From a virus (Duplodnaviria > Caudoviricetes), in the IMG/VR virus record IMGVR_UViG_3300030099_000111, positions 1 through 50,072 of that record: a DNA stretch of 50,072 nt. One strand, given 5' to 3'. Made by a program: the position numbers and the translations under genes. Below are positions 95 through 34,977 of the stretch, one piece after another (the first letter of the stretch is position 1; each line of letters starts with the position of its first letter). The notes under the pieces were generated by a model, which searched no databases, had not been told where the DNA came from, and was given only the letters and a program-made list of their open reading frames with translations.

Positions 95-1168
95 TTACGC
101 TGCGTTGTATTTAGCAGTTGTGATTGCTTCTGGACGAAGAATCTTTCTGCCATATAGATGCATACCACGAACAATGTCAGCAAAGCTGTCAGGGTCACGA
201 TATGTTTCTGTCTTGTTGATCTGCTCTGCAGTTGCCACAGCAGAATCATGTCCAGCAACAATCACACCAAAGTTAGCATTTTGGTTTGCTGTTCCTGATG
301 TACCTGGCCCTGTACCTACTGCTGGTAGGTTAGATGACACGTACAAACGGAAGCCGTGAAAGTTGTTGATTACAAGACCGTTACGTAGTCCACCAGACTC
401 ACCATAATCTCCATTCATAAATCGAGAGTCTTCGTCTGATAGGATTTCCATAAACACTGGGTCAATTACCAGCCATCTACCTTGCGTATCAACTTGTTGT
501 TGATCAAGCAAACGTTTCATTCTAGCAATGATCATTGCAGGTGAAACTGTAGCTGTCGGTAAAGACGTAGCGCCTGGCATACGTGCAGTCACTGGGATCG
601 AGTGATCTCCAGCAGATGATGTTGTAATATTACCAAATGAATCCTTGCGGAGTTTCATTGATGTCAACAACTCGTCTGAACCTGCAGTGATTACAGCTTT
701 TGTACCATTAACGGTTGTGTTAGCTGTATCAGCTTTTGCGTGTAGTGCAGATTGTTTAAAACCTGATAGATAGCCAAGAACTTCTTGGTCATACTGATCA
801 GCTAGTCTGTATGCTGCACGATCTGTAGCAAGTTGCATGAAGTTCACATGTGAGTGAGCTTCTTCAATATCGTCCATCTTAAAAGCAAAGTAGTTGCTTT
901 TGTCTACGACTAACTGAAAATCTTCATCGTCAAGGTCTTGTGCTGTGACTGTTGTGCCACGAGAATAAGCTTGAACTGAGATTTCAGGCTCTTTGATTAT
1001 ACGCACAGTATCACCTTGTGCGCTAATCTCTCCGAAATAATCAGAGTTAGTTATATCTCCTACAGTAGCAGCTTTGCGGAACGCAAGCTGTACCTGTTTG
1101 GAGTAGATTATTGGCGAGAAATTACCGTTAGGTAAATTGCCATAACCTGATGCGGTTTGAAAAGCCAT
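95..1168 (-). CDS. Major capsid protein
   Basis: Start MAFQTASGYG after GGAGG RBS; N-terminal FSPIIYS..., GDTVRI, C-terminal DIVRGMHLYGRKILRPE typical of HK97-fold podovirus capsids; lies downstream of scaffold and portal. Confidence 0.92.
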   Translation of the reverse strand: MAFQTASGYGNLPNGNFSPIIYSKQVQLAFRKAATVGDITNSDYFGEISAQGDTVRIIKEPEISVQAYSRGTTVTAQDLDDEDFQLVVDKSNYFAFKMDDIEEAHSHVNFMQLATDRAAYRLADQYDQEVLGYLSGFKQSALHAKADTANTTVNGTKAVITAGSDELLTSMKLRKDSFGNITTSSAGDHSIPVTARMPGATSLPTATVSPAMIIARMKRLLDQQQVDTQGRWLVIDPVFMEILSDEDSRFMNGDYGESGGLRNGLVINNFHGFRLYVSSNLPAVGTGPGTSGTANQNANFGVIVAGHDSAVATAEQINKTETYRDPDSFADIVRGMHLYGRKILRPEAITTAKYNAA

Positions 1169-1249
1169 GATTAAATCCTCCATATAGATGTATAGGCTTA
1201 GTTATTAAGCGTAACACTTTGAAAGAGGCTAATAGTTCTAGGGTGCGAG

Positions 1250-1430: not shown

Positions 1431-2312
1431 TTACCTTGCGCCACCAGAAACATCATAAACAAACTTACCTGATCGTATAGCTTCCATGATTTCTTCTGAT
1501 TTTGCTTCGTATTCTCTTGATGACATTTTTTGTACCTGCGACTCTAATATCTGTCCTGATACACCTTCGTCATCAATCTTAGTGCTTCTCTTTGTTTTAA
1601 CTTGAGATGCAGCTTCTTTAGTACTTTTCTTTTTAGACTTGAGATCCATACCGTTGTCAATCTTAAATAGATCAATAACACGTACAACTGATCTTGGATC
1701 GTCTTGATTTTCGTACAGAGCATCCTGTACCCACTTGGGTTGTTCTCCTGCCCAGTTATGAAAGTCATCGCTCTCACGCAGTTCATCAAAGTCAGGGTGC
1801 ATCTTACGTATGGCACTCTCTGCTTTTGTGCGCTGGGTTTCAGCGTTTAGCTTATCTATTTCTTGTAGCCTTTTGTCTGCCTTTGCAAACTTTTCTTCTG
1901 CTATCTTAGCAGCCTTTGTTTCTACAATCTGTGCTATCTCTGGATATTTTTTAGCCCACGCATCTATCTCTTCATCTGATTTAGGTGGACGTATCTCTCC
2001 TTTAGCAGCATTTTCCATCTGAGCTTTTAGTTCTTTTATTTCCTCAGACTGTTTGTTTAAGTGCTTGCGTAAGTCACTGTACCGTTTCTTATACGTTCTT
2101 TCTTCAGCAGATAGCGTTTCTTCTTTAACTTCTGTATCGGCCTCTTTCGCTTCGGTACTTTCCTCTTCGGTGGGCTGTTCTGTATCTCCCTCCATGAGGG
2201 CTTTGAGTTCTGCCTCATCCTTTTCTATTCGTTTCTTGTTTGCATTTTTTGTAGATTTATGTTGTACAAATCCTGCATTTTTTGGTGTTTCCACTTCTGT
2301 TAGTTCTGGCAT
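1431..2312 (-). CDS. Capsid scaffolding protein
   Basis: Highly charged coiled coil, YKKRYSDLR motif, HPDF motif, C-terminal IMEAIRSGK; directly upstream of capsid. Confidence 0.8.
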   Translation of the reverse strand: MPELTEVETPKNAGFVQHKSTKNANKKRIEKDEAELKALMEGDTEQPTEEESTEAKEADTEVKEETLSAEERTYKKRYSDLRKHLNKQSEEIKELKAQMENAAKGEIRPPKSDEEIDAWAKKYPEIAQIVETKAAKIAEEKFAKADKRLQEIDKLNAETQRTKAESAIRKMHPDFDELRESDDFHNWAGEQPKWVQDALYENQDDPRSVVRVIDLFKIDNGMDLKSKKKSTKEAASQVKTKRSTKIDDEGVSGQILESQVQKMSSREYEAKSEEIMEAIRSGKFVYDVSGGAR

Positions 2313-2380: not shown

Positions 2381-3577
2381 TTATCTAAAGTCTACTTCTA
2401 TTTCTTCTTTTTCTTCTGTGGGATCATCTTCCTGCTCTTGTCTAACTTGTTCTATAGCCTCATCTGGTGTAGGTAGATCATCATCATCATCGTCATCAGA
2501 AACACCTGGTGGCATTAATGCATCGTAATCTATTTCACCTGATTCTGTTTGATAGAAAGGTTGATCTGTTATAGGTACACCTGAAGAAGTCATTCCACCT
2601 GCGTTTGCATCTTGTTGATTAGCTGCTTGTTGTGCTCGAAACAAAATATTATTTGTTTCATCTGTCAGTGGATTACCGTCTGCATCAACACCTTGTGATA
2701 ATAAATCATTTATCTTGTTGTTAATTGATTTTGCTTGCATTCTTTTTATTCTTTTAGCTTGTGTTATTAAACCCAAACCTAAACCTGGCGCAAAGGAGTT
2801 TCCAACAAAACCTAAAATTATTCTATCTGCAGCCGTGACTGCACCTATATCTTCAGTTGCAAGCTTAGACATATCACTAGCATATTGTTGAAAATCTTTT
2901 GCTGTCCATTTACTAGCAGGTTTGTTTTCCCACGTTCTAGGAATATCTGGTCTGTCATCATCGTCATCATCTCTTGATGTTTCTGTTTTTTGTTTTTGTA
3001 CTTCTACGGCTGTATCACCTTTAAGTATAAATCCTTCTGGTATAGGAGAGAGAGGTCTACCATTAAAAAAGATTATTTGTATTTCTCTTCCTGTCTCAGG
3101 ATCAATGTATATCTTATATTCAAAGCCAGTAAAGATTGGACCTGTTCCACCATATGCCCCAAAGCCACCTCCAACTGGTGCAGGTATTTCTTTGTCTTGT
3201 ATTTTATCTATTTCACCACCCTCTTGCATTTGTTGTGGTGAGCCACCTGATGTAACTTTTTCTGCAGCTTCTTCTACTTCTAGCTCGTCATCTCTAAAGA
3301 AAGACTCCTCACCTTTTTTGATACGTTGGAAACCTTGTTTAGCTGCAGCCTGTAAGTTCTCAAAGAAGGGTGTTCCGTAGTAACGTCTAGTAGCTGCATC
3401 TATCATAAACTCATTGGGGCTTGCCATGATAGGTATGTCATCTCTAACTTCTTCTGGTGTAGCTCCAACAGGTGCTACGTTACCACTTACAGGATCTTGT
3501 TTCTCACTGAGTATCTCATCCATCTCACGTTTCATAGAACGTGTAGATTGAAACATTGGTGCGTCAGTCTCTGCCAT
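2381..3577 (-). CDS. Acidic head-associated protein with DDIP-x-M-x-S-xx-EF domain (possible maturation factor)
   Basis: 398-aa ORF between portal and scaffold; DDIPIMASPNEFMIDAATRRYYG, MQEGG, two poly-Asp tracts. Confidence 0.55.
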   Translation of the reverse strand: MAETDAPMFQSTRSMKREMDEILSEKQDPVSGNVAPVGATPEEVRDDIPIMASPNEFMIDAATRRYYGTPFFENLQAAAKQGFQRIKKGEESFFRDDELEVEEAAEKVTSGGSPQQMQEGGEIDKIQDKEIPAPVGGGFGAYGGTGPIFTGFEYKIYIDPETGREIQIIFFNGRPLSPIPEGFILKGDTAVEVQKQKTETSRDDDDDDRPDIPRTWENKPASKWTAKDFQQYASDMSKLATEDIGAVTAADRIILGFVGNSFAPGLGLGLITQAKRIKRMQAKSINNKINDLLSQGVDADGNPLTDETNNILFRAQQAANQQDANAGGMTSSGVPITDQPFYQTESGEIDYDALMPPGVSDDDDDDDLPTPDEAIEQVRQEQEDDPTEEKEEIEVDFR

Positions 3578-3758
3578 TTATTTCATCCCTTAAAAATGTC
3601 AATCTTCTTAGAGCAGCTATCTCACCTTGAGCACGATACACACCCTCCATAGATGTTTCTTGTTCTAGTTTGCGCTGCGCTACTTCTATCTTTTGATTAA
3701 GTACATCAACAAACCCATCCCAAAGAGGCTTGTCATTTACTAGTTTTTTTACTATCAT
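3564..3758 (-). CDS. Small conserved protein downstream of portal
   Basis: 64 aa, overlaps both neighbours; YRAQGEIAALRRL motif common after portal genes of marine podoviruses. Confidence 0.75.
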   Translation of the reverse strand: MIVKKLVNDKPLWDGFVDVLNQKIEVAQRKLEQETSMEGVYRAQGEIAALRRLTFLRDEINGRD

Positions 3759-5893
3759 GTACCTGTAAACCCTTGTTCACCTGGCGTTGGAACTGTGCCT
3801 GTGCCTATCGTTCCTCCACCTGCACCTGTAGTATCTTGTACTCCTGTACCTGCTGGTGGTGTTGGAGCAGGTTGTTGTCCTTCTTGTTCAGGAGTTTCAA
3901 GTGGAGCTATACCTTCAGGTGGCTCTGGTGGTGCAGCAAACTTCTTGAGTATCTCAGCTTGTATAGCTGCGTCACCAAGTGAGTTAGTTACTTTGTCAGG
4001 ATCTAAGTCCATGCTTTTAGCTATCTCACGAATGATGTAGTCTGACTTTACAAACGGCTGTAGCATAGGATTAGAGGCTACACCTAAGAACTGCATAAGG
4101 CGCTGGGAGCGTACCTCGTTAGCCATAAGACTTTCTGTGCCTTGTGCCTTTACTTCTAAATCACCCTTGATACCTTCATCGTAGTCAAACTGCATGTTAA
4201 ATGCAAAGAATGCTCTGCCCATAGGTGCAATAAGATAGTCATCTACGTTCTTAACTACATTCCGTATGCTACCGTTGGCAGCAGACATGAGCATAGAAAT
4301 ACCAGAAGCAGTACGCCCCACACCTTGTATGCCTGTTTGACCGTGTGCAAAAGATGGAAAGCCTGTTGATTCATCTGCTAGTACCCTTGCCTTATCAAAT
4401 AGCTGCATGTTTTCTGCAGCAACGTTTGGAAACTTAGTGCCAAATATACCTTGACCAGGAGCACCGCCCTGTCTACGAAACACCTTGCCAGGATAAACAG
4501 ATAGATCTTGGCCTGGTACTAGGTTAGTCTCATCTACCTCGATTATAAGATTACCAGATAGTGCAGCGTTGTCAATAGCCATACGCATAAAACCATTCAT
4601 TAAAGTTTGCGTATCATCCATGTTTTCTGCGATACCTACACCAAAGAATGAGTAAGGGTTTAACTCATACGGCACAGCGTAGTAAGGTATACGTGCTGGT
4701 TTAAATGGGTTAAGAACTAAACGTAAAACTTTACCATTACATATCCAAGCGTTTACACTTAACTGTTCTGAGTCTTGTACATCTTTTGGTATTACTACGC
4801 CGTGAGATTCTAGTATGTCTGTGTCTACGTATCCCCAAAACTCTAGGACTTCGTATCTGTATGGGGCGCTGCTATATTGTGCATCGTCCTCCATGTCTTG
4901 TTCCCAGTATTTCTTTTCGTAGTATTCGCCCATGTCTATAGCTTCACTAATAGACTCCTCTCTAAAGAAAGGTCTAGACTTTAGTCCTCGCATCTGAGAA
5001 CGTGTCATACGATGACGCTCTACTACATATTCTACTTCGTCCATGTTGTAAGCATCTGGATCAGGATAGAAGTTCCAAATAGATACGTGACTTGTAGATG
5101 GCACAGTCTTCACTGTTGGGTCATACTCACCGTCTTCATTCCAGTTAGGATACTCTTTGTCTATGGCAAATGGACCTTTCATAATCCCTGTGCCAAACAA
5201 TGCCATCTCAAAAGAAGTGTGGCGCAGTTGTTTATTAGCGCCACTTTCTTCTAACTGATCATGTATTTTTTTCTCCATCTTTTTAGCTGCAATCATAGCA
5301 GGATGGAATGTAACTGTATCTTGTGTTGTACCTGGGCCTTCTATTATTTTATCTGAAGCATACTCTAGCGTATCCTCTATTGGACCCATACGTTTCATGC
5401 GGTCATACATGGTTTCGCCAGGTTTTAGTTTTTGGTCTGGGTCAAACAACAATGTAACTGGGGGTTTTTTACCAAAGGCATCCTCTAACTGATCTTGTGC
5501 TTGTTCAGTTTGTGGGTTTATGCTAATGTGCATAGACTCAGCTACACCTTCAGGTAGTGTTGTAGGATTAACTGTAAGGGGAAAACGAGAGCTACCAAAC
5601 AAAACATCTACTATTTGTCCATAAGCAGCGAGTGTTTTAGTTTTAGTAACCTTTATAAATACACGAGACTTTTCAGTTTCTGTAAACTGCACGTCTGTGC
5701 TGTACATACCACGATAGTTTCTATATGCACGTAACCATCTGTTCTCGTCTGCAAACCTAGCGTCTTCTGCTTTTTTAAATTTAGAAGTAACAAAAGCTAC
5801 CACACTTGATGCATCTAAATCATCTTTGTCTTGAATAACAGAAACTTCATCTGTTTCAAATAGTTCAGCTTGTTCGTTATCTGTTGTAGCCAT
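3755..5893 (-). CDS. Portal protein
   Basis: 712 aa; FGTGIMKGP, NFYPDP, SFFGVGIAENM, RTASGISML motifs; adjacent to terminase. Confidence 0.92.
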   Translation of the reverse strand: MATTDNEQAELFETDEVSVIQDKDDLDASSVVAFVTSKFKKAEDARFADENRWLRAYRNYRGMYSTDVQFTETEKSRVFIKVTKTKTLAAYGQIVDVLFGSSRFPLTVNPTTLPEGVAESMHISINPQTEQAQDQLEDAFGKKPPVTLLFDPDQKLKPGETMYDRMKRMGPIEDTLEYASDKIIEGPGTTQDTVTFHPAMIAAKKMEKKIHDQLEESGANKQLRHTSFEMALFGTGIMKGPFAIDKEYPNWNEDGEYDPTVKTVPSTSHVSIWNFYPDPDAYNMDEVEYVVERHRMTRSQMRGLKSRPFFREESISEAIDMGEYYEKKYWEQDMEDDAQYSSAPYRYEVLEFWGYVDTDILESHGVVIPKDVQDSEQLSVNAWICNGKVLRLVLNPFKPARIPYYAVPYELNPYSFFGVGIAENMDDTQTLMNGFMRMAIDNAALSGNLIIEVDETNLVPGQDLSVYPGKVFRRQGGAPGQGIFGTKFPNVAAENMQLFDKARVLADESTGFPSFAHGQTGIQGVGRTASGISMLMSAANGSIRNVVKNVDDYLIAPMGRAFFAFNMQFDYDEGIKGDLEVKAQGTESLMANEVRSQRLMQFLGVASNPMLQPFVKSDYIIREIAKSMDLDPDKVTNSLGDAAIQAEILKKFAAPPEPPEGIAPLETPEQEGQQPAPTPPAGTGVQDTTGAGGGTIGTGTVPTPGEQGFTGT

Positions 5894-6095: not shown

Positions 6096-7664
6096 TTAAT
6101 ATCCAAACGTTGAGTCTGCGGCTTGGAAGCCTGTTCTGTGAGACATAGGATTGTAATCCCATAAAGAACTACGTGGTCTTGTCATTATACCATACCTAAG
6201 AGCATCGTACAAGTGGTCTTCTGAGTTTGTATCTACATCCTCTGGGTTTCTTTTATCAAGAGGTAGGCCTGGCAGTTGAGCTATCATATTGTTGCAAGTA
6301 GAGAAGAACACTAGTCTTGGCTCCTCAGTAAACTCGTCCACTTGCAAACGGCGGTGAAGCTCATTTTTACCTGCCACCCTTGAACCTTTTGATCTATCAG
6401 ACGGCCTCCAACGCAAGCCTTTCTGATTCATCTGTTCAGCCAAAGAAGGGCCAGTGTCTCCACGTTTATGCCACAGGGAGCTATCCAACACACCGTACCT
6501 GATATTGTCATCTTGTTCTGCATCTAATATCATATCTGCTAAATCTGTTGCCGTAACTCTTGAACAGTATAACTCTCTATATACTACAAGTTGTTCAGTT
6601 GGGCTTACTGCCAACCAAACAACTCCTGTGTAACTTCCGTAGCCGTAGTCACATGCCCTAAACCTAGTCCAACTTTTAGGTATATCATAGGGGTCTACTA
6701 CGTGTATTTTTCTGTTAAACTCAGGAAATGCTGCTCCCTCGTTTACATCCCAGTTCCCTTCTAGTAGTTGCTTTCTTTGATGCTCTGGCAGTGATAGAAG
6801 CATGGCTTCGTAGTCACCACTCTCAGCTAAATAAGGATTATCAAAGAGACTAGCAGGTATGAACCTTCTTTTGAATAGGGGTTGACCAGCTTTGCTATGC
6901 CCTTGTGGAAACTTCAGAACCTCACTAGTCTCTATGTCCGTTGCCCAGAATGGCGTGTTAGGCTTTGCTGGGTCAATGAACATCTTCTTAACCCAAGAGT
7001 GACCTGGACCACCTGGGTTTGTAGTTGCTCTCATGTACAGACCTAAGTCTTTGTTAGCACTACGTAGTCGGGATCTCATGTAGTTCCACGAGTAAGGACT
7101 GTTCCACTGTGTCAACTCGTCAAATGCTACGTAATTAAACGCCTGACCTTGATAGCGCATCACGTCTGTATCTCTGTCCAAGTACGACATCCAAAGTGTG
7201 CCGCCTCTTGGTGTAGTCCATTGCGACTTACGCTCAGACCACTTTATGTTAGGTATTGCTTTAGGGTATAGCTCTTGACTTTTTTGTATAAGCTCCCTAA
7301 GTTCCTCTGTTGTGTGTCGCACAAGTAGACCACTGAAGTCTTCATTATTTAAGTTACGTAACGGATCAGCTAGTGTTGCGTAGCTTTTACCGCCACCTGC
7401 TGCACCACCGTATAATACTTCACGCTCAGAGGATGCTAGGTATTGTGTTTGAGGACCAGGATTTGGCTTGAATACAACACTTTGTGCATACTCTACATCA
7501 AACTCTGGTGGCTTTGCTTGCGCTGGTTTAACCTCAGTCTTCTTCGTAGGTGTAGGAGCCAGGTCTTTCTTTTTCAAGGATTTCGATTTGACGTAACGCT
7601 TTTTCGAGCCTTTTGGCATACTGGCGTTTAATTGCAGTAATCCTCTTTCGCTTTCTTTCGACAT
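6096..7664 (-). CDS. terL: Terminase large subunit (true start probably downstream of 7664)
   Basis: Walker A GGAAGGGKS, Walker B VAFDE, coupling motif ATTNPG, nuclease DYGY and DHLYDALRY. Confidence 0.95.
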   Translation of the reverse strand: MSKESERGLLQLNASMPKGSKKRYVKSKSLKKKDLAPTPTKKTEVKPAQAKPPEFDVEYAQSVVFKPNPGPQTQYLASSEREVLYGGAAGGGKSYATLADPLRNLNNEDFSGLLVRHTTEELRELIQKSQELYPKAIPNIKWSERKSQWTTPRGGTLWMSYLDRDTDVMRYQGQAFNYVAFDELTQWNSPYSWNYMRSRLRSANKDLGLYMRATTNPGGPGHSWVKKMFIDPAKPNTPFWATDIETSEVLKFPQGHSKAGQPLFKRRFIPASLFDNPYLAESGDYEAMLLSLPEHQRKQLLEGNWDVNEGAAFPEFNRKIHVVDPYDIPKSWTRFRACDYGYGSYTGVVWLAVSPTEQLVVYRELYCSRVTATDLADMILDAEQDDNIRYGVLDSSLWHKRGDTGPSLAEQMNQKGLRWRPSDRSKGSRVAGKNELHRRLQVDEFTEEPRLVFFSTCNNMIAQLPGLPLDKRNPEDVDTNSEDHLYDALRYGIMTRPRSSLWDYNPMSHRTGFQAADSTFGY

Positions 7665-7956: not shown

Positions 7957-8317
7957 TGGTATCCTCTTTAGGTGGTAAAATAAATAAACCTCCTGTAGAC
8001 TCTACTGATACTTTCTCTGTTTTTACTACACCTGCACGATCAAGTATCTGACCTGCAGCCATTAGTGTTTCTTTTATACCTAGCTGGGTAGGATCGTCCA
8101 AAGCCCTACCATAAGCGACTGCAGCTTTGGGTCCAATCCTTGACATGTACGTTTTAGTAGCATCAAATATTTCATCCTTCAACCCCTCCACTATAGATGT
8201 AGTGGGAGTGTTGTCACTATACCCTGCTAACTTCTTAGCTGTGACAGCATCCCCACCTGCTTCTTCAAATAGAACTTCTAGGAACTTAGTTTGTTTCTCA
8301 TTTAAAGTTCGTGTCAT
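7937..8317 (-). CDS. Probable terminase small subunit
   Basis: LNEKQTKFL...GDAVTAKKLAGYS N-terminal HTH pattern, ILDRAG motif, upstream of terL. Confidence 0.7.
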   Translation of the reverse strand: MTRTLNEKQTKFLEVLFEEAGGDAVTAKKLAGYSDNTPTTSIVEGLKDEIFDATKTYMSRIGPKAAVAYGRALDDPTQLGIKETLMAAGQILDRAGVVKTEKVSVESTGGLFILPPKEDTNAESDE

Positions 8318-8562
8318 TTTACTTTCCTGTAGGCTCTGGTTTTTTTTGCGATCTTCTTAGGTTGAGCCACATGCTGCTTACCTGCCTTAGTGCCTTTTCG
8401 CTTTGCTCTGGTTGTAGCGGCATACTCAGCAGCGCTAAGAGACTTAATAGCCGCACTAGGTAAATAGCGCTCACCAGTTTTAGCACTAGGCTTCCCACTT
8501 TTAGTTCGCCACTTTTGTTTTGTCCATGACTTTAAACTTTTCTGAGATTTTTTAAGTGCCAT
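8314..8562 (-). CDS. Basic protein, QKSL..WTKQKW/GERYLP family (C-terminal half of DUF5872-like protein)
   Basis: Start MALKKSQKSL at 8562; very Lys/Arg rich. Confidence 0.7.
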   Translation of the reverse strand: MALKKSQKSLKSWTKQKWRTKSGKPSAKTGERYLPSAAIKSLSAAEYAATTRAKRKGTKAGKQHVAQPKKIAKKTRAYRKVK

Positions 8563-8563
8563 G

Positions 8564-8653
8564 TTAAGCCTTGCAATCACATCCACACTTGCCATTACAC
8601 AGGCATTTCAAATTTATAATAGCTCTAAATAACCTTCTAAAGTACCTTTTCAT
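8564..8653 (-). CDS. 29-aa Cys-rich micro-protein (not in ORF track)
   Basis: MKRYFRRLFRAIINLKCLCNGKCGCDCKA; ATGA overlap with the upstream stop, GGAGG upstream, stop 1 nt before the next ATG. Confidence 0.65.
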   Translation of the reverse strand: MKRYFRRLFRAIINLKCLCNGKCGCDCKA

Positions 8654-8835
8654 TTGTACCCTCCACCTTTTGCTTTGTATTGCTTTGCAAGCATCTGTGC
8701 TTTCCTGGCGCTCCACTGTCCAGGTTTTCCACCTTTGCTGCCAGCTTTAATGGAAGAAAACAAACGCTTACGCATAGTAGGCTTAGTATAATTACCTGCC
8801 TTGTTAACGGTTGATTTTTTTGCTGATTTCGCCAC
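8650..8835 (-). CDS. Basic protein, GQWSARKAQ family (DUF5872-like)
   Basis: NYTKPTMRKRLF...KGGKPGQWSARKAQMLAKQYKAKGGGY. Confidence 0.75.
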   Translation of the reverse strand: MAKSAKKSTVNKAGNYTKPTMRKRLFSSIKAGSKGGKPGQWSARKAQMLAKQYKAKGGGYK

Positions 8836-9371: not shown

Positions 9372-9881
9372 CTATGTAAATGGAGTTGCTGCAGTACCGT
9401 CACCGAATAGGTGTCCTGTAACTACCCACTTAGAATCAGTGATACATGTGTACTTAATCATACCACCGATAAAACGTCCTTTAGTATCACCGTCAGCTAC
9501 AATCTGATGATCTGCTGCTGCAGGTACTACAAACGCTAGTGTATCAATGTTTTCATTTAACGCAGCTAAACCACCGACTTCATCTTTGTCGATTATTGTA
9601 ATCATACCTTGAAGGGTATCTGCGCTAGATGCTGCATCAATTTGCATTGTTCCTGTAAATGTTGTGCCTACATGAAACTCATACGTTAATCCTGCTGCTG
9701 CTGCAGGTAGAGTTACGGTAATACCAGCAGCCCTGTTAAGAGTAAAGATAGTTCCTGACTCTGCTGCTGTTACTGTTTTAGTTGAATCAGTGATACTTGT
9801 CACTGCTGCTTTGATAGTAGTTAGAGTAATATCTTTTTCGTATACTTCGATACCCTCTTGCCTTGTTGCCGTTGCTGACAT
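9372..9881 (-). CDS. Putative head decoration/fibre protein
   Basis: TVTAAESGTIFTLNRAAGITVTLPAAAAGLTYEF beta-strand pattern seen in phage fibre/decoration domains. Confidence 0.55.
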   Translation of the reverse strand: MSATATRQEGIEVYEKDITLTTIKAAVTSITDSTKTVTAAESGTIFTLNRAAGITVTLPAAAAGLTYEFHVGTTFTGTMQIDAASSADTLQGMITIIDKDEVGGLAALNENIDTLAFVVPAAADHQIVADGDTKGRFIGGMIKYTCITDSKWVVTGHLFGDGTAATPFT

Positions 9882-10195
9882 TATTTGTCTCCTTTATAAA
9901 ACATTCCAGACTTTCTATAGTCTTTATTTCCATTACTGATCATGCCGCCTCTGTTCTTGAAGCCCATTTTGTTTCGTACTGCTGCAGGTAGTTTACCCAA
10001 ACCTTTGTTTCCTACAGGCACATCTTTTAGTTGTCCACCTTCGGACATACCCATAGCTGGGGCTGTACCCATCATCTTTTTAGGTTTACGTTGTTGTTGA
10101 CCCATCATCATACTACGTTGCCTCTCTTGATCTGCTTGTGTAGGATTGTACATAGGTTGTATAGGGTTTATGACGTTTGCGTTTTTAGTTCTCAT
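9881..10195 (-). CDS. Small basic Met/Gly-rich protein
   Basis: NKGLGKLPAAVRNKMGF motif; MSEGG and NRGG motifs. Confidence 0.75.
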   Translation of the reverse strand: MRTKNANVINPIQPMYNPTQADQERQRSMMMGQQQRKPKKMMGTAPAMGMSEGGQLKDVPVGNKGLGKLPAAVRNKMGFKNRGGMISNGNKDYRKSGMFYKGDK

Positions 10196-10199
10196 AACG

Positions 10200-10538
10200 C
10201 TACCCTTTCATAAGTTTATAACCTTTGGCTTTTGCTGCTGCACGAAGACTAGATAAAGTCATGCCTGTTTTACCACCATTAGCCATACCTTTTTTCTTCA
10301 TGCCCTTAACTTTACCGCCATTAGCCATGCCTTTCTTTTTCATAGACCTAACCTTACCACCGTTAGCCATGCCCTTTTTCTTCATGGATCTAACTTTACC
10401 TCCGTTAGCCATGCCTTTTTTCTTCATGGTTTTCTTTACTTTGCCACCATTAGCCATGCCTTTTTTCTTTACTTTACCACCGTTTTTGTATTTTCTCATA
10501 GCTCCACCACGAGCCATACCTTTCTTTTTCATTTTCAT
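10200..10538 (-). CDS. Lys-rich tandem-repeat protein (KKKGMANGGKV)
   Basis: Five MANGG repeats plus MARGG and YKNGG; no acidic residues; GAGGA RBS. Confidence 0.85.
   Translation of the reverse strand: MKMKKKGMARGGAMRKYKNGGKVKKKGMANGGKVKKTMKKKGMANGGKVRSMKKKGMANGGKVRSMKKKGMANGGKVKGMKKKGMANGGKTGMTLSSLRAAAKAKGYKLMKG
10269..10530 (-). repeat. Coding tandem repeat of about 33-45 nt with synonymous variation
   Basis: Repeated ttagccatgcctt units on the + strand with degenerate third positions. Confidence 0.85.
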
Positions 10539-10540
10539 GG

Positions 10541-11218
10541 TTAATCCTCACTGTATAGATTGTTAAACACTCGTTGCGTATCCCAAACGTACTCTACGTC
10601 TTGCTTAGAGTGAAATATGTTTTGGTTAGGTTTAAAGTCAGGAGCACCTTCGCCAGCTTCAAACCATGCAGGGTGAGTTACCCTCACTCTATTATTAGGC
10701 AACGCAACCATGTTGCCAGTATATTCACCTGCATCTAATAACTCCAACACGTGTGATTGTTTGTGCTGCGCTGGGTCATCTGCTACCTCGCTGTCTGTGT
10801 AGTCAACAGTGAAGTAATACTTTGCAGGATAAAACTCATTGTCTATCTTAGCTATCCACGGTGCAGGGCTTGCCCTGTTAATCACGTAAACGGAGTGTTC
10901 ATGCGACATGCAATCCCACGGCTGCGCTAAGTAAGGTGGAAGTTCTTGGGGCCACTCCTCTAAAGGGGTATCTGCAACGAGCGCAGTTAGCGGCATTCTA
11001 GCCCACATTGCTCCACCATGCACGTTAGGGCTATCTTCGTCATCATCGGACTCATAGCCAGTAAATATTACTTGAAAGCTTAGTGTCCTGTTAGGCATAG
11101 TCGTAACTGCTACAACCATACAATGCAAGAACTCGCCATGATATTCCTGCATATTCTTTGTGTATTCTCTTCTTACCCACGCTTTGAAGTAGGGTATATT
11201 ACTTTGTAGATACGCCAT
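10541..11218 (-). CDS. Conserved marine-phage hypothetical protein
   Basis: Start MAYLQSNIPYF; GAMWARMP, QPWDC, YYFTVD, HKQSH, ALPNNR motifs. Confidence 0.8.
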   Translation of the reverse strand: MAYLQSNIPYFKAWVRREYTKNMQEYHGEFLHCMVVAVTTMPNRTLSFQVIFTGYESDDDEDSPNVHGGAMWARMPLTALVADTPLEEWPQELPPYLAQPWDCMSHEHSVYVINRASPAPWIAKIDNEFYPAKYYFTVDYTDSEVADDPAQHKQSHVLELLDAGEYTGNMVALPNNRVRVTHPAWFEAGEGAPDFKPNQNIFHSKQDVEYVWDTQRVFNNLYSED

Positions 11219-11504
11219 CTTTTTTGTGTTTCCTTCGCAAATCTGCTTTAGCTTGTTTGAAGACATTTGCTATAGCTGTCTTCCCCATAACTTTAGCACG
11301 TTGTTCAGCTACTGTCAATATCTGAATCTTTCTTGCGTAGGGTTTCTTGATGCGTTTTACTTTAGCTACTGTAGCTCTAGCGTCAGCCATAGTAGCAAAC
11401 TTAATAGATACTGTATCTTTAGGGTTTTCGTCTGTGTATAGCCTACGTCCAGACCCTTTAGGTTTTTTACCTGTTCCTACTTTTGGGTCTTTTTGCTTTG
11501 CCAT
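11199..11504 (-). CDS. Basic hypothetical protein
   Basis: DPKVGTGKKPKGSGRRLYTDENPKDTVSIKF motif. Confidence 0.75.
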   Translation of the reverse strand: MAKQKDPKVGTGKKPKGSGRRLYTDENPKDTVSIKFATMADARATVAKVKRIKKPYARKIQILTVAEQRAKVMGKTAIANVFKQAKADLRRKHKKDGVSTK

Positions 11505-11616: not shown

Positions 11617-11737
11617 TCTTTTTCCTTTTTGCTTTACTGGGTAATAAACCTTTACTAACTGCACGAGCACGTTCAGAAAAACCCATCTTTTCTCCTGTGC
11701 GTATCTTGCGTTTAATAGTTGATACTTTAGCTACCAT
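11594..11737 (-). CDS. 47-aa basic protein (not in ORF track)
   Basis: MVAKVSTIKRKIRTGEKMGFSERARAVSKGLLPSKAKRKKNATNKRK; overlaps both neighbours. Confidence 0.6.
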   Translation of the reverse strand: MVAKVSTIKRKIRTGEKMGFSERARAVSKGLLPSKAKRKKNATNKRK

Positions 11738-12015
11738 GCTTTGCAGGACCAGTATCTTGCAGTAAATTTATCTTTGGCTGTATCGCATTTGTGTCGAGCA
11801 CGAAAACTTTTACGTGCTGCAGCGTTATCTTTTCGGATGGGCATATTAGGATCGCCAAACCGAACAACTTTTATCTCGTCACCTTTTTTAGCTAACACGG
11901 CTGACTTCTTAGATTCACCTGATAGTCGTTTAACTTTGTTGTAGCCTGGGAATATCTCACCACGATACTTTAGTTTGCCACTGGGTAGTCGCTCTACATC
12001 TTTAGTTGTTGCCAT
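11731..12015 (-). CDS. Basic protein, VRFGD/RKSFRARHKC/ARYWSC family
   Basis: Motifs seen directly in the translation; GAGG RBS. Confidence 0.8.
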   Translation of the reverse strand: MATTKDVERLPSGKLKYRGEIFPGYNKVKRLSGESKKSAVLAKKGDEIKVVRFGDPNMPIRKDNAAARKSFRARHKCDTAKDKFTARYWSCKAW

Positions 12016-15783: not shown

Positions 15784-16914
15784 ATGAACGTACTAAGTTT
15801 ATTTGATGGTATGTCTTGTGGACAGATTGCCTTAGACAAACTAGGCATACCAGTTAACAAATACTTTGCGGCAGAGATTGACAAGTATGCAATCCAGGTT
15901 GCCAAGAAAAACTATCCTGACATGATCCACTTAGGTGATGTCAAAGAGATAGACCCTAATGAGTTACCGAAAATCGATTTGCTCATTGGCGGTTCACCTT
16001 GTCAAGGATTTTCGTTTGCAGGAAAGCAACTCAACTTTTCTGATCCACGATCACAGTTATTCTTTGAATACGTGCGACTACTCAAAGCACTCAAGCCAAA
16101 GTATTTTTTGATGGAGAACGTTAAGATGAAGAAGGAGAGCATGGATATCATTACTGAGTATCTTGGTGTAGAACCTGTGGAGATAAACAGCAATCTTGTC
16201 TCAGCTCAGAACAGGCGTAGACTTTACTGGACAAACATACCAGTAGACGGATTGCCAGAAGATAAAGGTACAGTTTTAGCTGATATCTTAGAAGATGGAT
16301 TCACAGATCGTGACAAGTCCTACTGCTTGGATGCTAGTTACTACAAGGGTGGTGGTGCATCTAATGTACGGCTGTACTTTGAAAAGAGTAGACGACAGAT
16401 TGTATTCGGATCAGGTGACAACAGACTAGATGTAACAGGTGCAAGGATTGTTAACCGTAGGCTAAACAAGGACGGTAAACGTAAAGACAATGACAAGAGT
16501 ATTAAGCCACAGGCTAGGTTAGAACTACGCAAGGATAACAAAGCAGGTTGCCTTACAACAGTACAGAAAGATTCTGTTGTTGCAAAAACAAACTCAAGTG
16601 GAATGAACATCGTAGGTGAGGCCAACATCAAAGGCAGAGAATCTATACGCAGAGTGTACGGCACAGACGGTAAAGCACCAACATTATTAGCTACTACTGG
16701 TGGTAACACACAACCTAAGATAGCACAGCCTATGACACTTGACGAGGGTACAACATGGCGTAAACTCACTGTGACAGAATGTGAGAGACTACAAACTGTA
16801 CCTGATGGGTATACCTGCGGCGTATCAAACACACAACGCTACAAGATGCTAGGCAACGGATGGACAGTAGATGTAATCAAACATATCTTTGAAGGACTAA
16901 AGGAGACAGCATAA
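15784..16914 (+). CDS. DNA (cytosine-5) methyltransferase
   Basis: Motif I LFDGMSCG, catalytic GGSPCQ, ENV, QNRRR, ECERLQ, LGNGW. Confidence 0.95.
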   Translation: MNVLSLFDGMSCGQIALDKLGIPVNKYFAAEIDKYAIQVAKKNYPDMIHLGDVKEIDPNELPKIDLLIGGSPCQGFSFAGKQLNFSDPRSQLFFEYVRLLKALKPKYFLMENVKMKKESMDIITEYLGVEPVEINSNLVSAQNRRRLYWTNIPVDGLPEDKGTVLADILEDGFTDRDKSYCLDASYYKGGGASNVRLYFEKSRRQIVFGSGDNRLDVTGARIVNRRLNKDGKRKDNDKSIKPQARLELRKDNKAGCLTTVQKDSVVAKTNSSGMNIVGEANIKGRESIRRVYGTDGKAPTLLATTGGNTQPKIAQPMTLDEGTTWRKLTVTECERLQTVPDGYTCGVSNTQRYKMLGNGWTVDVIKHIFEGLKETA

Positions 16915-33600: not shown

Positions 33601-34362
33601 TCTCCTAGCTGCTCTACGTGCGGCCTCAAATCTTACCTTTGCTCTGGCTGCTTTTGCTGCACTTTCAGCAGCCCTAGTCATAGATGCTTTTGTGTAGCCA
33701 CTACCAGTAAGCTTCTTGATCATAGCCTCTGCTGCTTCATCGCCAGCTTTTTTAGCTGCTTCTTTAGTTGCACCAGACTGTGCTGCTCTCCTAGCTGCTG
33801 CTGCTACTGCATTTTTTATTGCTGCTTTACTAGCCTCACTCACACCCAACGCACCAGCCTTACCTGCAAAGCCTGTCACTAAGCCTAAGTAGTTTGTTGG
33901 ATCAGTTGCTACAGCTAGGATGTAATCCTTGACACCATCCACAGCCCCAAACACACCATCGTTTACAAAGACATTACCTAGACTGTCGTACAACTCGTAT
34001 GCTTCTTTTGCTGCTCTTTTAGTTTCGTCATCAGCTTTAGATATGTATCTAGCTTCACCTGCAGTTGCGACTATGTTAGTATTAAACCTACGCATACTAT
34101 CTACAAAGTCCTCCACTACAGTCTCAGCTTTGGCTGTCCTGTATGCAGCACCCTTCTTGCCTATCATGTAGTTACGTATCTTGTTTAACCTGTCTCTTCT
34201 GTACAAGTCTTGCTTTTTTAGTTTTTCTCCTTCACGAGTATCAGACTCAAACATATCATCAAATTGTGTGTTGTCTCTGTACTCAGGCACACCACTGTCT
34301 ATATCTTTAGACGCATCCGTTTCTATACCATACTCTTTATAAAAATCATTTAGTGTTGTCAT
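30676..34362 (-). CDS. Large internal virion (ejection) protein
   Basis: 1228 aa, Ala/Lys-rich helical, terminal gene of the virion arm. Confidence 0.7.
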   Translation of the reverse strand: MTTLNDFYKEYGIETDASKDIDSGVPEYRDNTQFDDMFESDTREGEKLKKQDLYRRDRLNKIRNYMIGKKGAAYRTAKAETVVEDFVDSMRRFNTNIVATAGEARYISKADDETKRAAKEAYELYDSLGNVFVNDGVFGAVDGVKDYILAVATDPTNYLGLVTGFAGKAGALGVSEASKAAIKNAVAAAARRAAQSGATKEAAKKAGDEAAEAMIKKLTGSGYTKASMTRAAESAAKAARAKVRFEAARRAARRATVEGGEVTLTKGRLKPRTIKFGMQQAGKKAVLQTTAIDSLLAGYQDVAIQDLYLDVGAQEKYSALQTGLSLALGGVAGGLHYTFGKADGLSGFAEAADMARAGTRGEEFPLKKFKAAKEELKKLKQSGADKATIKKQQRLVSKLQSEAIGKPLLAKESIDKAASEMKDAIKSWGEKVRSGKEELAKGEGNQIMPESLLSQIMLGYTTADKAASKGPMPIGGLAKIFNENNIKFSKKTKVSDVMTNLLQYMPEEELKEISKLFKKETSIDLGTTATLAVDLGDIIAATTSGAGSTLSVMAAVRRATDAGVVSGNEILATALEQKAVRDTLEQEGLLNVTKRAKGLGYAQNVWKRLLVSSPATTAANVAGFAQFYGGQGVADIFASGQLYIAGIGAASVGNKELSQELFRKSRVYRDIQTQKMKNFLDPLATYETFISLMDDIGDNKEFKGLLFETIGGGVERTAKRYNVDVNNPVIKNAEIFADASMTITGVRIQDTFTKSQMFMTELDKYVRLKHNKNLIDVLKSGDLEMLDDDVIGGAVDTTLRSVFSKDYTTDDQYLGAVARAVEQASNTPVLGTVIPFGRFMNNVVATAYQWSPLSFAGVASRIIKKEPGIKTNEAFARSLVGTSALVLAMQLDDERQKKGLGVNEIEMSGTVMDVRNVFPFSLFLVAGRVGNLTAKGETVPPELIEELGNQLAIGQVARDLQFGNDVFNAIDFFSSGGRGADLDALYKSLGNVAAGATRPLDALNRSIGFLADNDVAKDVRQADGFLPVFTQSSTKYFDNILEALIGESETLTGENLRVSSREGDIYDANPLARILGLNIKRGKTATEQAYTLANLQSWKQDQRSNIPTYDRLFNAGLAPMLEKRMQVLLSSKRFQDGDLEYKRGRVKYELKKARDQLRDYFDIPGSSAYLDQQRYRASTKGTKAQQKKAMRYMESLGVDAELKDFNFRELKTYESYIDHLNLKIKTGM

Positions 34363-34958
34363 TTTAGTGCTGCCTTTAATGCGTCAGAAAACTTAGTGCC
34401 AGGAGTTCCAAAGCCATCCTTAGTAACTTTACCTGTCTTCAACCACGATTTAGCTTTACCGTGTCCTTGATTGTGTGCGTACGCTAGTGCTGCTAGTTTA
34501 TCTTCTTTAGATAACTTTCTGTACTCAGGTGACACCATCATATATCTGTGATTTTGAGCAGTGTAAGCAGCAAAAGCTTTTTCTTGTAAGTCTACATTGC
34601 CTCTAAACTTTTCACGAGATTTAGTATCATGAGGTAGTTCTAGTCCTAACAATCTAGCCGCATCTATCTTAGCATCTTTACCTAACTGATACCTACCATC
34701 ATAGTGATCGTTAGCCCCACCCTTTGCGTGATAGTTACCAGATCCTCTTGATTCTATCTTAGCTAGTTCTTCTCTGTATATATCCCATGTGCTTTTGTTT
34801 ACGCCAAGTTTATCAGACACAAGATCATACACAGTATTTTGCCATGTAGGTTTTTTCTTTGGAGACATCAGCCCCTCTGGTTCCTCTCCCACAACTCTTC
34901 CTGGCATGTTTATCTCAACAAACTCAACAACTTTTCCTGGCATATCTATAGCTACCAT
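34359..34958 (-). CDS. Lysozyme-like / lytic transglycosylase
   Basis: Start MVAIDMPG after GAGGA; KIESRG (catalytic Glu), GRYQLG, AYAHNQG. Confidence 0.78.
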   Translation of the reverse strand: MVAIDMPGKVVEFVEINMPGRVVGEEPEGLMSPKKKPTWQNTVYDLVSDKLGVNKSTWDIYREELAKIESRGSGNYHAKGGANDHYDGRYQLGKDAKIDAARLLGLELPHDTKSREKFRGNVDLQEKAFAAYTAQNHRYMMVSPEYRKLSKEDKLAALAYAHNQGHGKAKSWLKTGKVTKDGFGTPGTKFSDALKAALK

Positions 34959-34977
34959 GTTTAAAAAATCCTCTATA

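What the first reader, a model, noticed from the sequence alone, without database searches (positions are those of the whole stretch)
2381..3577. Candidate head cargo-processing/targeting system: DDIP-x-M-x-S-xx-EF domain plus dispersed [MFY]xxGG motifs
Seen: the gene between portal and scaffold carries DDIPIMASPNEFMIDAATRRYYG followed by MQEGG (3215-3229). The same hydrophobic-x-x-GG motif recurs in other virion-arm proteins: MSEGG (9881..10195), MARGG, YKNGG and five MANGG (10200..10538), and FQGGG about 65 aa into the 1431-aa internal protein. Knowledge: this gene slot often holds the prohead protease; from recall, a similar DSIPAMLSxGEFV domain is flanked by FAxGG motifs in many tape-measure proteins and has no assigned function. 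No recognisable S14/S21/S49 protease is visible in the window. Inference: the domain recognises or cleaves at xxGG motifs, acting as an uncharacterised maturation protease or capsid-import signal receptor.
Basis: partly seen in the sequence, partly recalled or inferred. Interest (0 to 1): 0.85.

Follow-up and report, generated by a model that had tools for sequence, protein, structure and literature searches.

The report
Portal-side protein carrying tape-measure module
The gene after the portal of this marine short-tailed phage encodes an acidic protein whose conserved core is the small module found near the end of many phage tape-measure proteins, bracketed by short aromatic-x-x-Gly-Gly motifs; it is probably a virion-internal, ejected protein, and nothing suggests a protease.

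Summary
The sequence observations are correct. The wider claim of a motif "dispersed over virion proteins" is not.

- **The gene.** ORF 2381-3577(-) sits in a fixed slot: portal, 64-aa gene, X, scaffold-like gene, capsid. A portal lies upstream in 57 of 57 related loci and a capsid gene downstream in 46 of 46.
- **The family.** It is a very large, unnamed marine family with 2303 representatives.
- **The tape-measure link.** Its core (residues 43-88) is homologous to a module near the C-terminal end of siphophage tape-measure proteins (hhalign 97.9%, E 4e-13). Carriers include lambda gpH, JBD30 gp46 and Douge gp16.
- **The motif.** [FYM]xxGG is tightly tied to the flanks of the module: 181 downstream and 105 upstream occurrences against about 8 expected. 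Elsewhere in the window it is at chance.
- **Not a protease.** The protein has no His or Cys. The conserved part is a short, partly disordered helical element, and no fold or family match exists.
- **Cargo in relatives.** Relatives fuse cell-wall hydrolases to it.

Best reading: a portal-proximal internal or ejection protein with a tape-measure-type anchor module. The motifs could still be processing sites, as in the unexplained cleavage of lambda gpH.

The parts
2381..3577 (-). Gene X: 398-aa acidic protein (pI 4.2, no Cys, no His), the subject of the finding
   Evidence: No Pfam, PHROG or NCBIfam family. 169 near-length homologues and 2303 representatives for residues 20-200.
3020..3511 (-). 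Conserved N-terminal region (about residues 23-186) shared by the whole family
   Evidence: Invariant columns in A1 (19 sequences) and A2 (64 sequences). Matched stretches fall within residues 1-180 of the query.
3314..3451 (-). Core module (residues 43-88) homologous to the module near the C-terminal end of tape-measure proteins. It contains the DDIPIMASPNEF motif.
   Evidence: hhalign of A2 against A3: probability 97.9%, E 4.4e-13, 49 columns. The A3 profile hits the tape-measure proteins of Douge, JBD30 and lambda among PDB chains.
3215..3229 (-). MQEGG, the downstream flanking [FYM]xxGG motif (E119, G120 and G121 invariant in close relatives; G120 and G121 invariant in 64 diverse ones)
   Evidence: 134 of 145 representatives have such a motif 50-110 aa after the core. 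It lies in a segment with pLDDT 43-48.
3065..3124 (-). Predicted beta-hairpin (residues 152-171) with the conserved FFNGRP...IPEG signature just after it
   Evidence: AlphaFold2 strands 152-158 and 165-171, pLDDT 91-94. F170, G173, P175, P180 and G182 are at least 90% conserved.
2558..2950 (-). Variable C-terminal helical region (about residues 210-340), followed by an acid-rich tail
   Evidence: Helices with pLDDT 77-95. Poorly conserved across the family. No fold match.
3564..3758 (-). Conserved 64-aa gene between the portal and gene X, overlapping both
   Evidence: Homologous small genes in CRP-603 and HMO-2011. tblastn hit in 70 of 80 related loci, including all 65 with a portal hit. No family.
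3755..5893 (-). Portal protein
   Evidence: Pfam SU10_portal, E 4.5e-25. phrog_1216 portal.
1431..2312 (-). Scaffold-position gene (293 aa), called scaffold-like by position only
   Evidence: phrog_13678, unknown function. Found downstream of gene X in 46 of 46 loci with room.
95..1183 (-). Major head protein
   Evidence: phrog_267 major head protein, E 1.2e-62. P22_CoatProtein below cut-off.
10200..10538 (-). 112-aa, pI 12 protein made of tandem KKKG-M-A-x-G-G units. The motif occurs here without the module.
   Evidence: A 42-nt tandem repeat of 4.7 copies. 194 homologues with the same repeat and a conserved C-terminal tail.
9881..10195 (-). 104-aa basic protein with one MSEGG and a conserved C-terminal RGG...DYR...FYK element
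   Evidence: Homologues in CRP-345 and CRP-1. The syntenic CRP-345 cluster of small basic proteins has M-x-RGG units.

Best explanation
Gene X encodes a portal-proximal, virion-internal protein of an HMO-2011-type podophage. It is most likely packaged at or in the DNA exit channel and expelled ahead of the DNA. That would make it the short-tailed-phage counterpart of the distal part of a siphophage tape-measure protein.

Its conserved N-terminal region holds a small tape-measure-type module: an extended D-D-I-P-x-x-x-S-x-x-E-F stretch followed by short helices. [FYM]xxGG linear motifs in flexible linkers bracket the module. I infer that the module is a docking or anchor element that lodges the protein in a ring-shaped channel component. 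This is what the JBD30 authors propose for the corresponding tape-measure segment.

The variable remainder is cargo. In relatives it is a cell-wall hydrolase. In this phage it is a helical, very acidic domain of unknown activity.

**Shown:** the homology, the fixed gene slot, the motif-module coupling and the cargo fusions.
**Inferred:** presence in the virion, ejection and the anchoring role.
For: **1. Fixed slot.**
- Portal, small gene, X, scaffold-position gene, coat in CRP-603 and HMO-2011.
- A portal lies upstream on the same strand in 57 of 57 related loci with more than 2.5 kb of upstream DNA. Scaffold-like and capsid genes lie downstream in 46 of 46 with room.

**2. A second podophage lineage.** It puts a module-bearing protein in the same slot, with the module at the C-terminal end.
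- HTVC104P gp81 lies between portal gp82 and gp80/capsid gp79.
- Of 47 such metagenomic loci, 36 of 36 portal hits lie upstream and 44 of 44 scaffold-like hits lie downstream.

**3. Homology to the tape-measure module.**
- hhalign 97.9%, E 4.4e-13.
- The module profile hits Douge gp16 (two copies, E 1e-30), JBD30 gp46 residues 1015-1089 (E 1.4e-11) and lambda gpH residues 753-795 (E 1e-4).
- tblastn with the whole 382-aa module-bearing ORF of L029 matched 110 cultured-phage records, each over about 10-15% of the query around the module. Of the 40 rows listed, most are annotated tape-measure proteins and three are Pelagibacter phage proteins.

**4. What is known of tape-measure proteins.**
- They fill the tail lumen and are ejected first.
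- JBD30 residues 1022-1066 are described as a predicted hook that may anchor the protein in the baseplate (PMC11445458, passages).
- This is by analogy to the T5 pb2* C-terminus, which inserts between hub subunits (PMC10038345, passages).

**5. Cargo in long forms.**
- Hydrolase_2 in P0265, P0267, P0272 and P0374; Phage_lysozyme in P0192; LPD23 in P0250; Phage_L5_gp82 in P0362.
- 7 of the 120 long forms listed carried a precomputed Pfam domain. 113 of 120 had none.

**6. A third class.** Its module proteins sit next to a gene matching phrog_4287, "DNA ejection protein" (E about 1e-5).

**7. Structure prediction.** The most conserved residues (28-60) have pLDDT about 58-73. That is typical of a segment that orders only on a partner.
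Against: - There is no direct evidence that the protein is in the virion. I found no proteomics or structure for any HMO-2011-type phage. The HMO-2011-type genomics paper (PMC9038755, passages) lists several core genes of unknown function without naming this one in the passages I saw.
- The module region is not resolved in the Douge, JBD30 or lambda virion maps. Only the last 33-42 residues of the tape-measure proteins were built. The anchor role is therefore a published speculation, not an observation.
- The cargo fusions I scanned were chosen because they already carried a Pfam label. Most long forms have none.
- The phrog_4287 matches are weak.
- This window's own protein carries no recognisable enzyme.
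- An assembly-only role fits the slot equally well.
Confidence: 0.5

Rival explanations
1. Processing system. The [FYM]xxGG motifs are proteolytic cleavage sites that cut these proteins, and tape-measure proteins, into modules. The cutter would be the module itself (autocatalysis or in trans), another phage protein or a host protease. The K-rich MANGG proteins would be further substrates.
For: - The motifs sit at domain boundaries. They lie before and after the module, about 25 aa after the Hydrolase_2 domain in P0265, P0267 and P0272, on both sides of it in P0374, and near the C-terminus in 50 of 145 representatives.
- They lie in low-confidence linkers.
[quoted passage not shown] Both the site and the catalyst are unknown (PMC12617516, passages).
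- In gpH, a 14-kDa C-terminal piece starts near residue 720. FATGG is at 733, the core at 753 and YATGG at 778.
- T5 pb2 is also cut between its body and its muralytic domain.
Against: - The target has no His and no Cys.
- No protease family is found in the window in six frames: S78, S49, S14, C39 and JAB.
- The residues shared by both alignments do not form a known catalytic set.
- The conserved core is far smaller than any known protease fold.
- The HTVC103P-like class keeps the module with 0 of 47 upstream motifs and only 10 of 47 downstream.
- Conservation on both sides of GG (Ala at +1, Val/Ile at +6) also fits a small structural hairpin.
- The T5 cleavage site is after an Arg, not after GG.
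- Prok-JAB, a GG-directed peptidase family, is present in only 2 of 5 module-bearing tape-measure records.
Confidence: 0.15
2. Assembly-only factor. The protein helps nucleate or build the procapsid at the portal, as a second scaffold or portal-incorporation chaperone, and is absent from the mature virion.
For: - It lies between the portal and the scaffold-position gene in every locus examined.
- It is very acidic and partly disordered, like many scaffolds.
- A small conserved partner gene overlaps both the portal and gene X.
Against: - Homology to a module of ejected tape-measure proteins.
- Fusions to cell-wall hydrolases, which make sense only if the protein is delivered to a host envelope.
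- A separate scaffold-position gene is already present.
Confidence: 0.15
3. Divergent member of the Mu F / SPP1 gp7 head-morphogenesis family: a portal-bound minor head protein that often carries fused effectors.
For: - Same gene position, immediately after the portal.
- The same habit of carrying variable fused domains.
Against: - No Pfam match at E <= 0.1, Phage_Mu_F included.
- No PHROG match.
- Foldseek against BFVD found only uncharacterised homologues.
- The demonstrable homology is to tape-measure proteins instead.
Confidence: 0.05

Closest known systems
Distal (C-terminal) module of siphophage tape-measure proteins (lambda gpH residues about 733-795, JBD30 gp46 1015-1089, Douge gp16 959-1028 and 1410-1471)
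   Same: - Homologous core of D-x-I-P-A-x-L-S-x-G-E-[FY]-V plus short helices.
- The same [FYM]xxGG brackets.
- Frequent association with muralytic domains.
   Different: - The target is a 398-aa protein of a short-tailed phage with no tape-measure Pfam domain.
- Its gene sits beside the portal, not in a tail module.
- The upstream motif lies 30-50 aa before the core instead of 14.
- The core is the DDIP variant.
Slot proteins of HTVC103P-type pelagiphages (for example HTVC104P gp81)
   Same: - Same slot: portal, X, scaffold-like gene, capsid.
- Related portals, 47-50% identity.
- Carries the module.
   Different: - The module is at the C-terminal end and of the SDSIPARLSDGEF type.
- No upstream [FYM]xxGG in 0 of 47.
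- No small gene is annotated between the portal and X in HTVC104P.
Internal or ejection proteins of podophages (T7 gp14-16, P22 ejection proteins; recalled)
   Same: - Proposed role: stored inside the particle and expelled first.
- Muralytic domains in some relatives.
- A third module class neighbours a phrog_4287 "DNA ejection protein" gene.
   Different: - No sequence or fold similarity found.
- This window has a separate block of large structural ORFs (1431 aa, 1228 aa) that look like the classical internal proteins.
Mu F / SPP1 gp7 minor head proteins and "polyvalent" phage proteins (recalled)
   Same: - Gene immediately after the portal.
- Modular fusions.
- LPD23, a polyvalent-protein domain, in relative P0250 (40.4 bits).
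   Different: - No Phage_Mu_F match.
- The target itself has no LPD domain.
Prohead maturation proteases (S78, S77, S14, S49, S21)
   Same: Only the general gene neighbourhood: the head module, between portal and capsid.
   Different: - No family match.
- No His or Cys.
- No protease-like fold.

Membership tests
Prohead or maturation protease (S78, S14, S49 and the like) | Match to a protease family model | tested here: not met
   No Pfam family at E <= 0.1 for the target. Six-frame searches of the window for PF04586, PF01343 and PF00574 found nothing at E <= 1. S21 and S77 were not searched.
Prohead or maturation protease (S78, S14, S49 and the like) | Catalytic Ser-His(-Asp), Ser-Lys or Cys-His residues conserved | tested here: not met
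   The target has 0 His and 0 Cys. No Lys or His is among the invariant columns of A2.
Tape-measure protein | Tape-measure family domain (TMP_2, TMP_3, Tape_meas_lam_C, PhageMin_Tail) and a long helical ruler | tested here: not met
   No Pfam or PHROG match for the target. It is only 398 aa. The module-bearing large ORFs do match these domains.
Tape-measure protein | Encoded in the tail module of a long-tailed phage | tested here: not met
   The gene lies between portal and capsid. The relatives are the HMO-2011-type phages, whose tail the phiRIO-1 paper treats among podovirus tails (passages of PMC4819975; records).
Unnamed module near the C-terminal end of tape-measure proteins (no Pfam model) | Core D-[SD]-[IV]-P-A-x-L-S-x-G-E-[FY]-V followed by short helices | tested here: met
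   hhalign of A2 against A3: 97.9%, E 4.4e-13. D46, S53 and E56 align with the D, S and E that are invariant or nearly invariant in A3. The target reads DDIPIMASPNEF, a divergent form.
Unnamed module near the C-terminal end of tape-measure proteins (no Pfam model) | Flanking [FYM]xxGG motifs | tested here: met
   MQEGG lies 71 aa after the core start. 134 of 145 family representatives and 62 of 73 tape-measure-type modules have a flanking motif. The target starts too close to the core to carry the upstream one.
Mu F / SPP1 gp7 head-morphogenesis family | Match to Phage_Mu_F (PF04233) | tested here: not met
   No Pfam family at E <= 0.1.
Mu F / SPP1 gp7 head-morphogenesis family | Gene directly downstream of the portal; protein bound to the portal in the head | tested here: inconclusive
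   The position holds. Portal binding cannot be tested with these tools.
Polyvalent proteins (LPD-domain proteins) | Presence of LPD or other polyvalent-associated domains in one large polypeptide | tested here: not met
   None in the target. LPD23 is above cut-off in relative P0250 and below cut-off in P0347 and P0353.

The most novel reading that the evidence does not exclude
The module and its [FYM]-A-x-G-G brackets form one ancient processing-and-anchoring cassette. It is shared by siphophage tape-measure proteins and by the portal-side proteins of abundant marine podophages. Cleavage at or next to the GG brackets would free the cargo and expose the module as a new terminus that locks into the exit channel. 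Such cleavage would be self-directed or carried out by a conserved host enzyme. This would explain the 50-year-old unexplained gpH to gpH* cleavage of lambda. It would also predict that the K-rich MA-x-GG repeat proteins are cut into short basic peptides.
Probability: 0.12. Interest if true: 0.85.

Novelty: new variant of a known kind. Interest (0 to 1): 0.55.

Why it matters
- **Scale and abundance.** HMO-2011-type and HTVC103P-type phages are described as dominant marine virus groups (PMC9038755, abstract and passages). This slot protein is one of their conserved unknowns, with thousands of variants.
- **A concrete hypothesis.** Linking its core to a tape-measure module suggests an ejected, channel-lodged protein with swappable cargo. 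It also defines a domain-plus-linear-motif cassette that no library names.
- **A route to an old question.** The cassette lies in the C-terminal region of lambda gpH from which an unmapped cleavage removes a fragment of about 14 kDa. The cassette therefore gives a specific, cheap test for that question.

Tried and rejected
- **Protease reading.** Rejected as the lead explanation for the reasons given above.
- **GG-directed peptidase partner.** I recalled that lambda gpK has a JAB domain. Prok-JAB is absent from the window. It is present in 2 of 5 module-bearing tape-measure records, both of them with lambda-type tape-measure proteins. It is therefore not a general partner.
- **Adenovirus-protease-like site.** The recalled consensus puts the hydrophobic residue one position closer to GG, and no C5-like enzyme was evident. 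This was not pursued.
- **Fold searches of the full-length model.** The PDB gave no match with E <= 0.001 (best 0.43). BFVD gave 6 matches with E <= 0.001, all uncharacterised relatives.
- **PDB sequence search with the family profile A1.** Only a chance-level hit, E 0.98.
- **ESM Atlas.** Only unnamed viral clusters. The nearest named cluster (crAss_CARG1) scored 0.80, a level the tool itself calls often chance.
- **Complex prediction, portal alignment A4 plus residues 20-200 of A2.** The verdict was "no answer" with score 0.00, and the controls were not run. This counts neither for nor against binding.
- **AlphaFold2 of the isolated tape-measure module (A3).** Only residues about 31-58 were confident, and the flanking motifs were not placed. 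The question of whether the brackets fold onto the core stays open.
- **tblastn of the 112-aa repeat protein against cultured phages.** It found nothing, and the low-complexity filter was on. The protein-cluster search did find its family.
- **Literature.**
  - No paper in the library contains any of six literal motif strings in a phage context. The 2 hits were both irrelevant.
  - I found no virion proteomics for HMO-2011-type phages.
JBD30 Appendix Fig. S8 and T5 fig. S5G and table S3 show the hook prediction and the pb2 cleavage mapping, and I did not see them.
- **First filing of the report.** One search was returned for a missing confidence field and is re-sent here with the field added.
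Full report
**What is there.**
The window is a 50,072-bp virus record, estimated 92% complete. On the minus strand it reads:
- large terminase (6096-7664);
- portal (3755-5893; Pfam SU10_portal, E 4.5e-25);
- a 64-aa ORF (3564-3758);
- the target (2381-3577, 398 aa);
- a 293-aa scaffold-position ORF;
- the major head protein (phrog_267).

The target is very acidic (pI 4.2) and has no Cys or His. It matches no Pfam, PHROG or NCBIfam model.

**The family and its slot.**
- tblastn finds the N-terminal 40% of the protein only in HMO-2011-type phages among cultured phages. That is 12 records with the target and 14 with the more typical relative P0181.
- In CRP-603 and HMO-2011 the annotated order is portal, small ORF, a hypothetical protein of 438 or 762 aa, a further hypothetical protein, coat.
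- In metagenomes the family is very large:
  - 169 near-length proteins at E <= 1e-3 among 8000 scored candidates;
  - 2303 representatives at 50% clustering for residues 20-200, of which 526 at E <= 1e-10;
  - 3056 proteins of 708-2020 aa carrying the region.
- I examined 80 viral loci found with the family alignment:
  - a portal gene lies upstream on the same strand in 57 of 57 with more than 2.5 kb of upstream DNA;
  - scaffold-position and capsid genes lie downstream in 46 of 46 with room;
  - the 64-aa gene is detected in 70 of 80.
- The conserved part is residues about 23-186. The rest varies freely.

**Structure.**
- AlphaFold2 on 64 sequences gave mean pLDDT 73 and pTM 0.42.
- The most conserved stretch (residues 28-60, including DDIPIMASPNEF) has pLDDT only about 58-73 and no regular structure.
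- It is followed by confident helices (61-87).
- The MQEGG region (residues 111-150) is low confidence, pLDDT 43-48.
- Then come a confident beta-hairpin (152-171) and a confident helical C-terminal region (211-340).
- Foldseek found nothing in the PDB and only uncharacterised relatives in BFVD.
- High conservation with low single-chain confidence suggests segments that order on a partner.

**The tape-measure link.**
- A degenerate DNA pattern for the recalled motif returned at least 119 viral contigs. My script found 120 in-frame matches in 118 of the 119 loci.
- The large ORFs among them are tape-measure proteins. They match TMP_2, Tape_meas_lam_C, TMP_3 and TMP_4, plus many tape-measure PHROGs. 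The module lies after those domains and no Pfam model covers it.
- A 45-sequence module alignment (A3) aligns to the target family profile with hhalign probability 97.9%, E 4.4e-13, over target residues 43-88.
- The A3 profile hits three tape-measure proteins present in solved entries:
  - mycobacteriophage Douge gp16, two copies;
  - Pseudomonas phage JBD30 gp46, residues 1015-1089;
  - lambda gpH, residues 753-795.
- tblastn with the whole 382-aa module-bearing ORF of L029 matched 110 cultured-phage records, each over about 10-15% of the query around the module. Of the 40 rows listed, most are annotated tape-measure proteins of Arthrobacter, Mycobacterium, Klebsiella, Salmonella and other phages. 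Three are Pelagibacter phages HTVC103P, 104P and 115P.

**Three genomic contexts for the module.**
1. The C-terminal part of tape-measure proteins.
2. The portal-side slot of two related podophage lineages.
   - In HTVC104P, gp81 between the portal and the scaffold-like and capsid genes carries the module at its C-terminal end.
   - 47 of the 119 pattern loci are of this type. All 36 portal hits lie upstream and all 44 scaffold-like hits lie downstream.
3. Proteins of 290-800 aa with the module at the extreme C-terminus. They sit in structural clusters beside a gene weakly matching phrog_4287, "DNA ejection protein".

**The motif.**
- I took the 150 representatives listed. 145 have a recognisable core and 5 were dropped for lack of it. 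The table gives [FYM]xxGG counts against shuffles of the same proteins.

| Region | Observed | Shuffle expectation | Proteins with a motif |
|---|---|---|---|
| 50-110 aa after the core | 181 | 8.9 +/- 2.8 | 134 |
| Within 60 aa before the core | 105 | 7.1 +/- 2.7 | 64 of the 72 with at least 45 aa of N-terminal extension |
| Last 35 residues | 54 | 4.7 | 50 |
| Everywhere else | 53 | 71.5 | not counted |

- The spacing is specific. In the upstream window, [FYM]xGG occurs once, [FYM]xxxGG 17 times and [ILV]xxGG 3 times, against 105.
- In the non-portal (tape-measure-type) modules, 62 of 73 have a flanking motif and 27 have both. The peaks are at -14 (28 cases) and at +35 to +46.
- The HTVC103P-like class is the exception: 0 of 47 upstream and 10 of 47 downstream.
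- These proteins are related to one another, so the counts are not independent events.
- The motif also marks other domain edges. It lies about 25 aa after Hydrolase_2 in P0265, P0267 and P0272, and on both sides of it in P0374.
- In the window itself the motif is not enriched outside three proteins.

**The motif-only proteins.**
- The 112-aa ORF is a real, conserved family with 194 hits. It consists of KKKG-[MY]-A-x-G-G units and a conserved C-terminal tail.
- It is encoded by a 42-nt tandem repeat.
- CRP-345 has a syntenic cluster of small basic proteins with M-x-RGG units.
- Whether these proteins are packaged is unknown.

**Function.**
- Tape-measure proteins fill the tail lumen and leave first. 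Only their last 33-42 residues are resolved in Douge and JBD30 virions.
- The JBD30 authors describe residues 1022-1066, which are the module, as a predicted hook. They speculate that it anchors the cleaved protein in the baseplate, by analogy with T5.
- In T5, the 43 C-terminal residues of cleaved pb2* insert between hub subunits.
- Relatives of the target carry cell-wall hydrolases, as many tape-measure and internal virion proteins do.
- I therefore read gene X as a portal-proximal internal or ejection protein with a tape-measure-type docking module. My confidence is about 0.5. Virion presence and ejection are inferred, not shown.

**The processing alternative.**
- Lambda gpH loses about 14 kDa from a glycine-rich C-terminal region. 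Both the site and the catalyst are unknown (PMC12617516, passages).
- In gpH a 14-kDa fragment begins near residue 720, just before FATGG (733), the core (753) and YATGG (778).
- Against the module being the enzyme:
  - it has no His or Cys;
  - its folded core is tiny;
  - the window holds no protease family in six frames;
  - the HTVC103P-like class largely lacks the brackets.
- I give the processing reading 0.15 overall, and less for the module acting as the protease.

**Verdict.**
- The "dispersed over virion proteins" claim and the protease or receptor mechanism are not supported.
- The finding is a new variant of a known kind: an ejection or tape-measure-type protein in a new context. 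It defines an undescribed domain-plus-motif cassette and offers a testable link to lambda gpH processing.

Noticed in passing
window 3564-3758 (-): A 64-aa ORF overlaps both the portal stop and the start of gene X. It is conserved in 70 of 80 related loci and has no family match. It may be a partner of the portal or of gene X.
   Followed up: partly
window 8314-8595, 8650-8835, 11199-11504, 11731-12015 (-): A cluster of small, very basic proteins lies between the packaging genes and the divergent replication arm. CRP-345 has syntenic equivalents. One matches phrog_7595 and phrog_9979, both of unknown function.
   Followed up: partly
window 10225-10566 (+) versus 10200-10538 (-): The tandem repeat keeps both strands open (113 aa and 112 aa). 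The minus-strand reading is the one with 194 homologues.
   Followed up: yes
window 34359-35066 and 37625-39052 (-): Two ORFs inside the structural block have lysin features: phrog_5867 endolysin-like, and PG_binding_1. They suggest virion-associated wall-degrading proteins separate from gene X.
   Followed up: no
window 10541-11266 (-): A 241-aa ORF matches phrog_3704, labelled ferredoxin or auxiliary metabolic gene (E 2.4e-29). It sits among the small basic genes.
   Followed up: no
P0107, P0114, P0118 (relatives of gene X): These relatives carry an extra, well-conserved C-terminal domain of about 110 aa that begins with a Cys-containing motif. It is absent from the target and was not identified.
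   Followed up: no
L074, L091 (viral contigs) and Douge gp16: Some tape-measure proteins carry two copies of the module 400-670 aa apart. The module is therefore not always near the C-terminus.
   Followed up: no
Family-wide: last 35 residues of 50 of 145 representatives: A C-terminal tail has the form G-G-F-[NK]-K-G-G-L-[MV]-x followed by a run of Lys. It resembles one unit of the 112-aa repeat protein. The target lacks it.
   Followed up: partly
window 15784-16914 (+): A 376-aa ORF whose translation looks like a cytosine-5 DNA methyltransferase. This is my reading of the sequence, and no family search was run.
   Followed up: no
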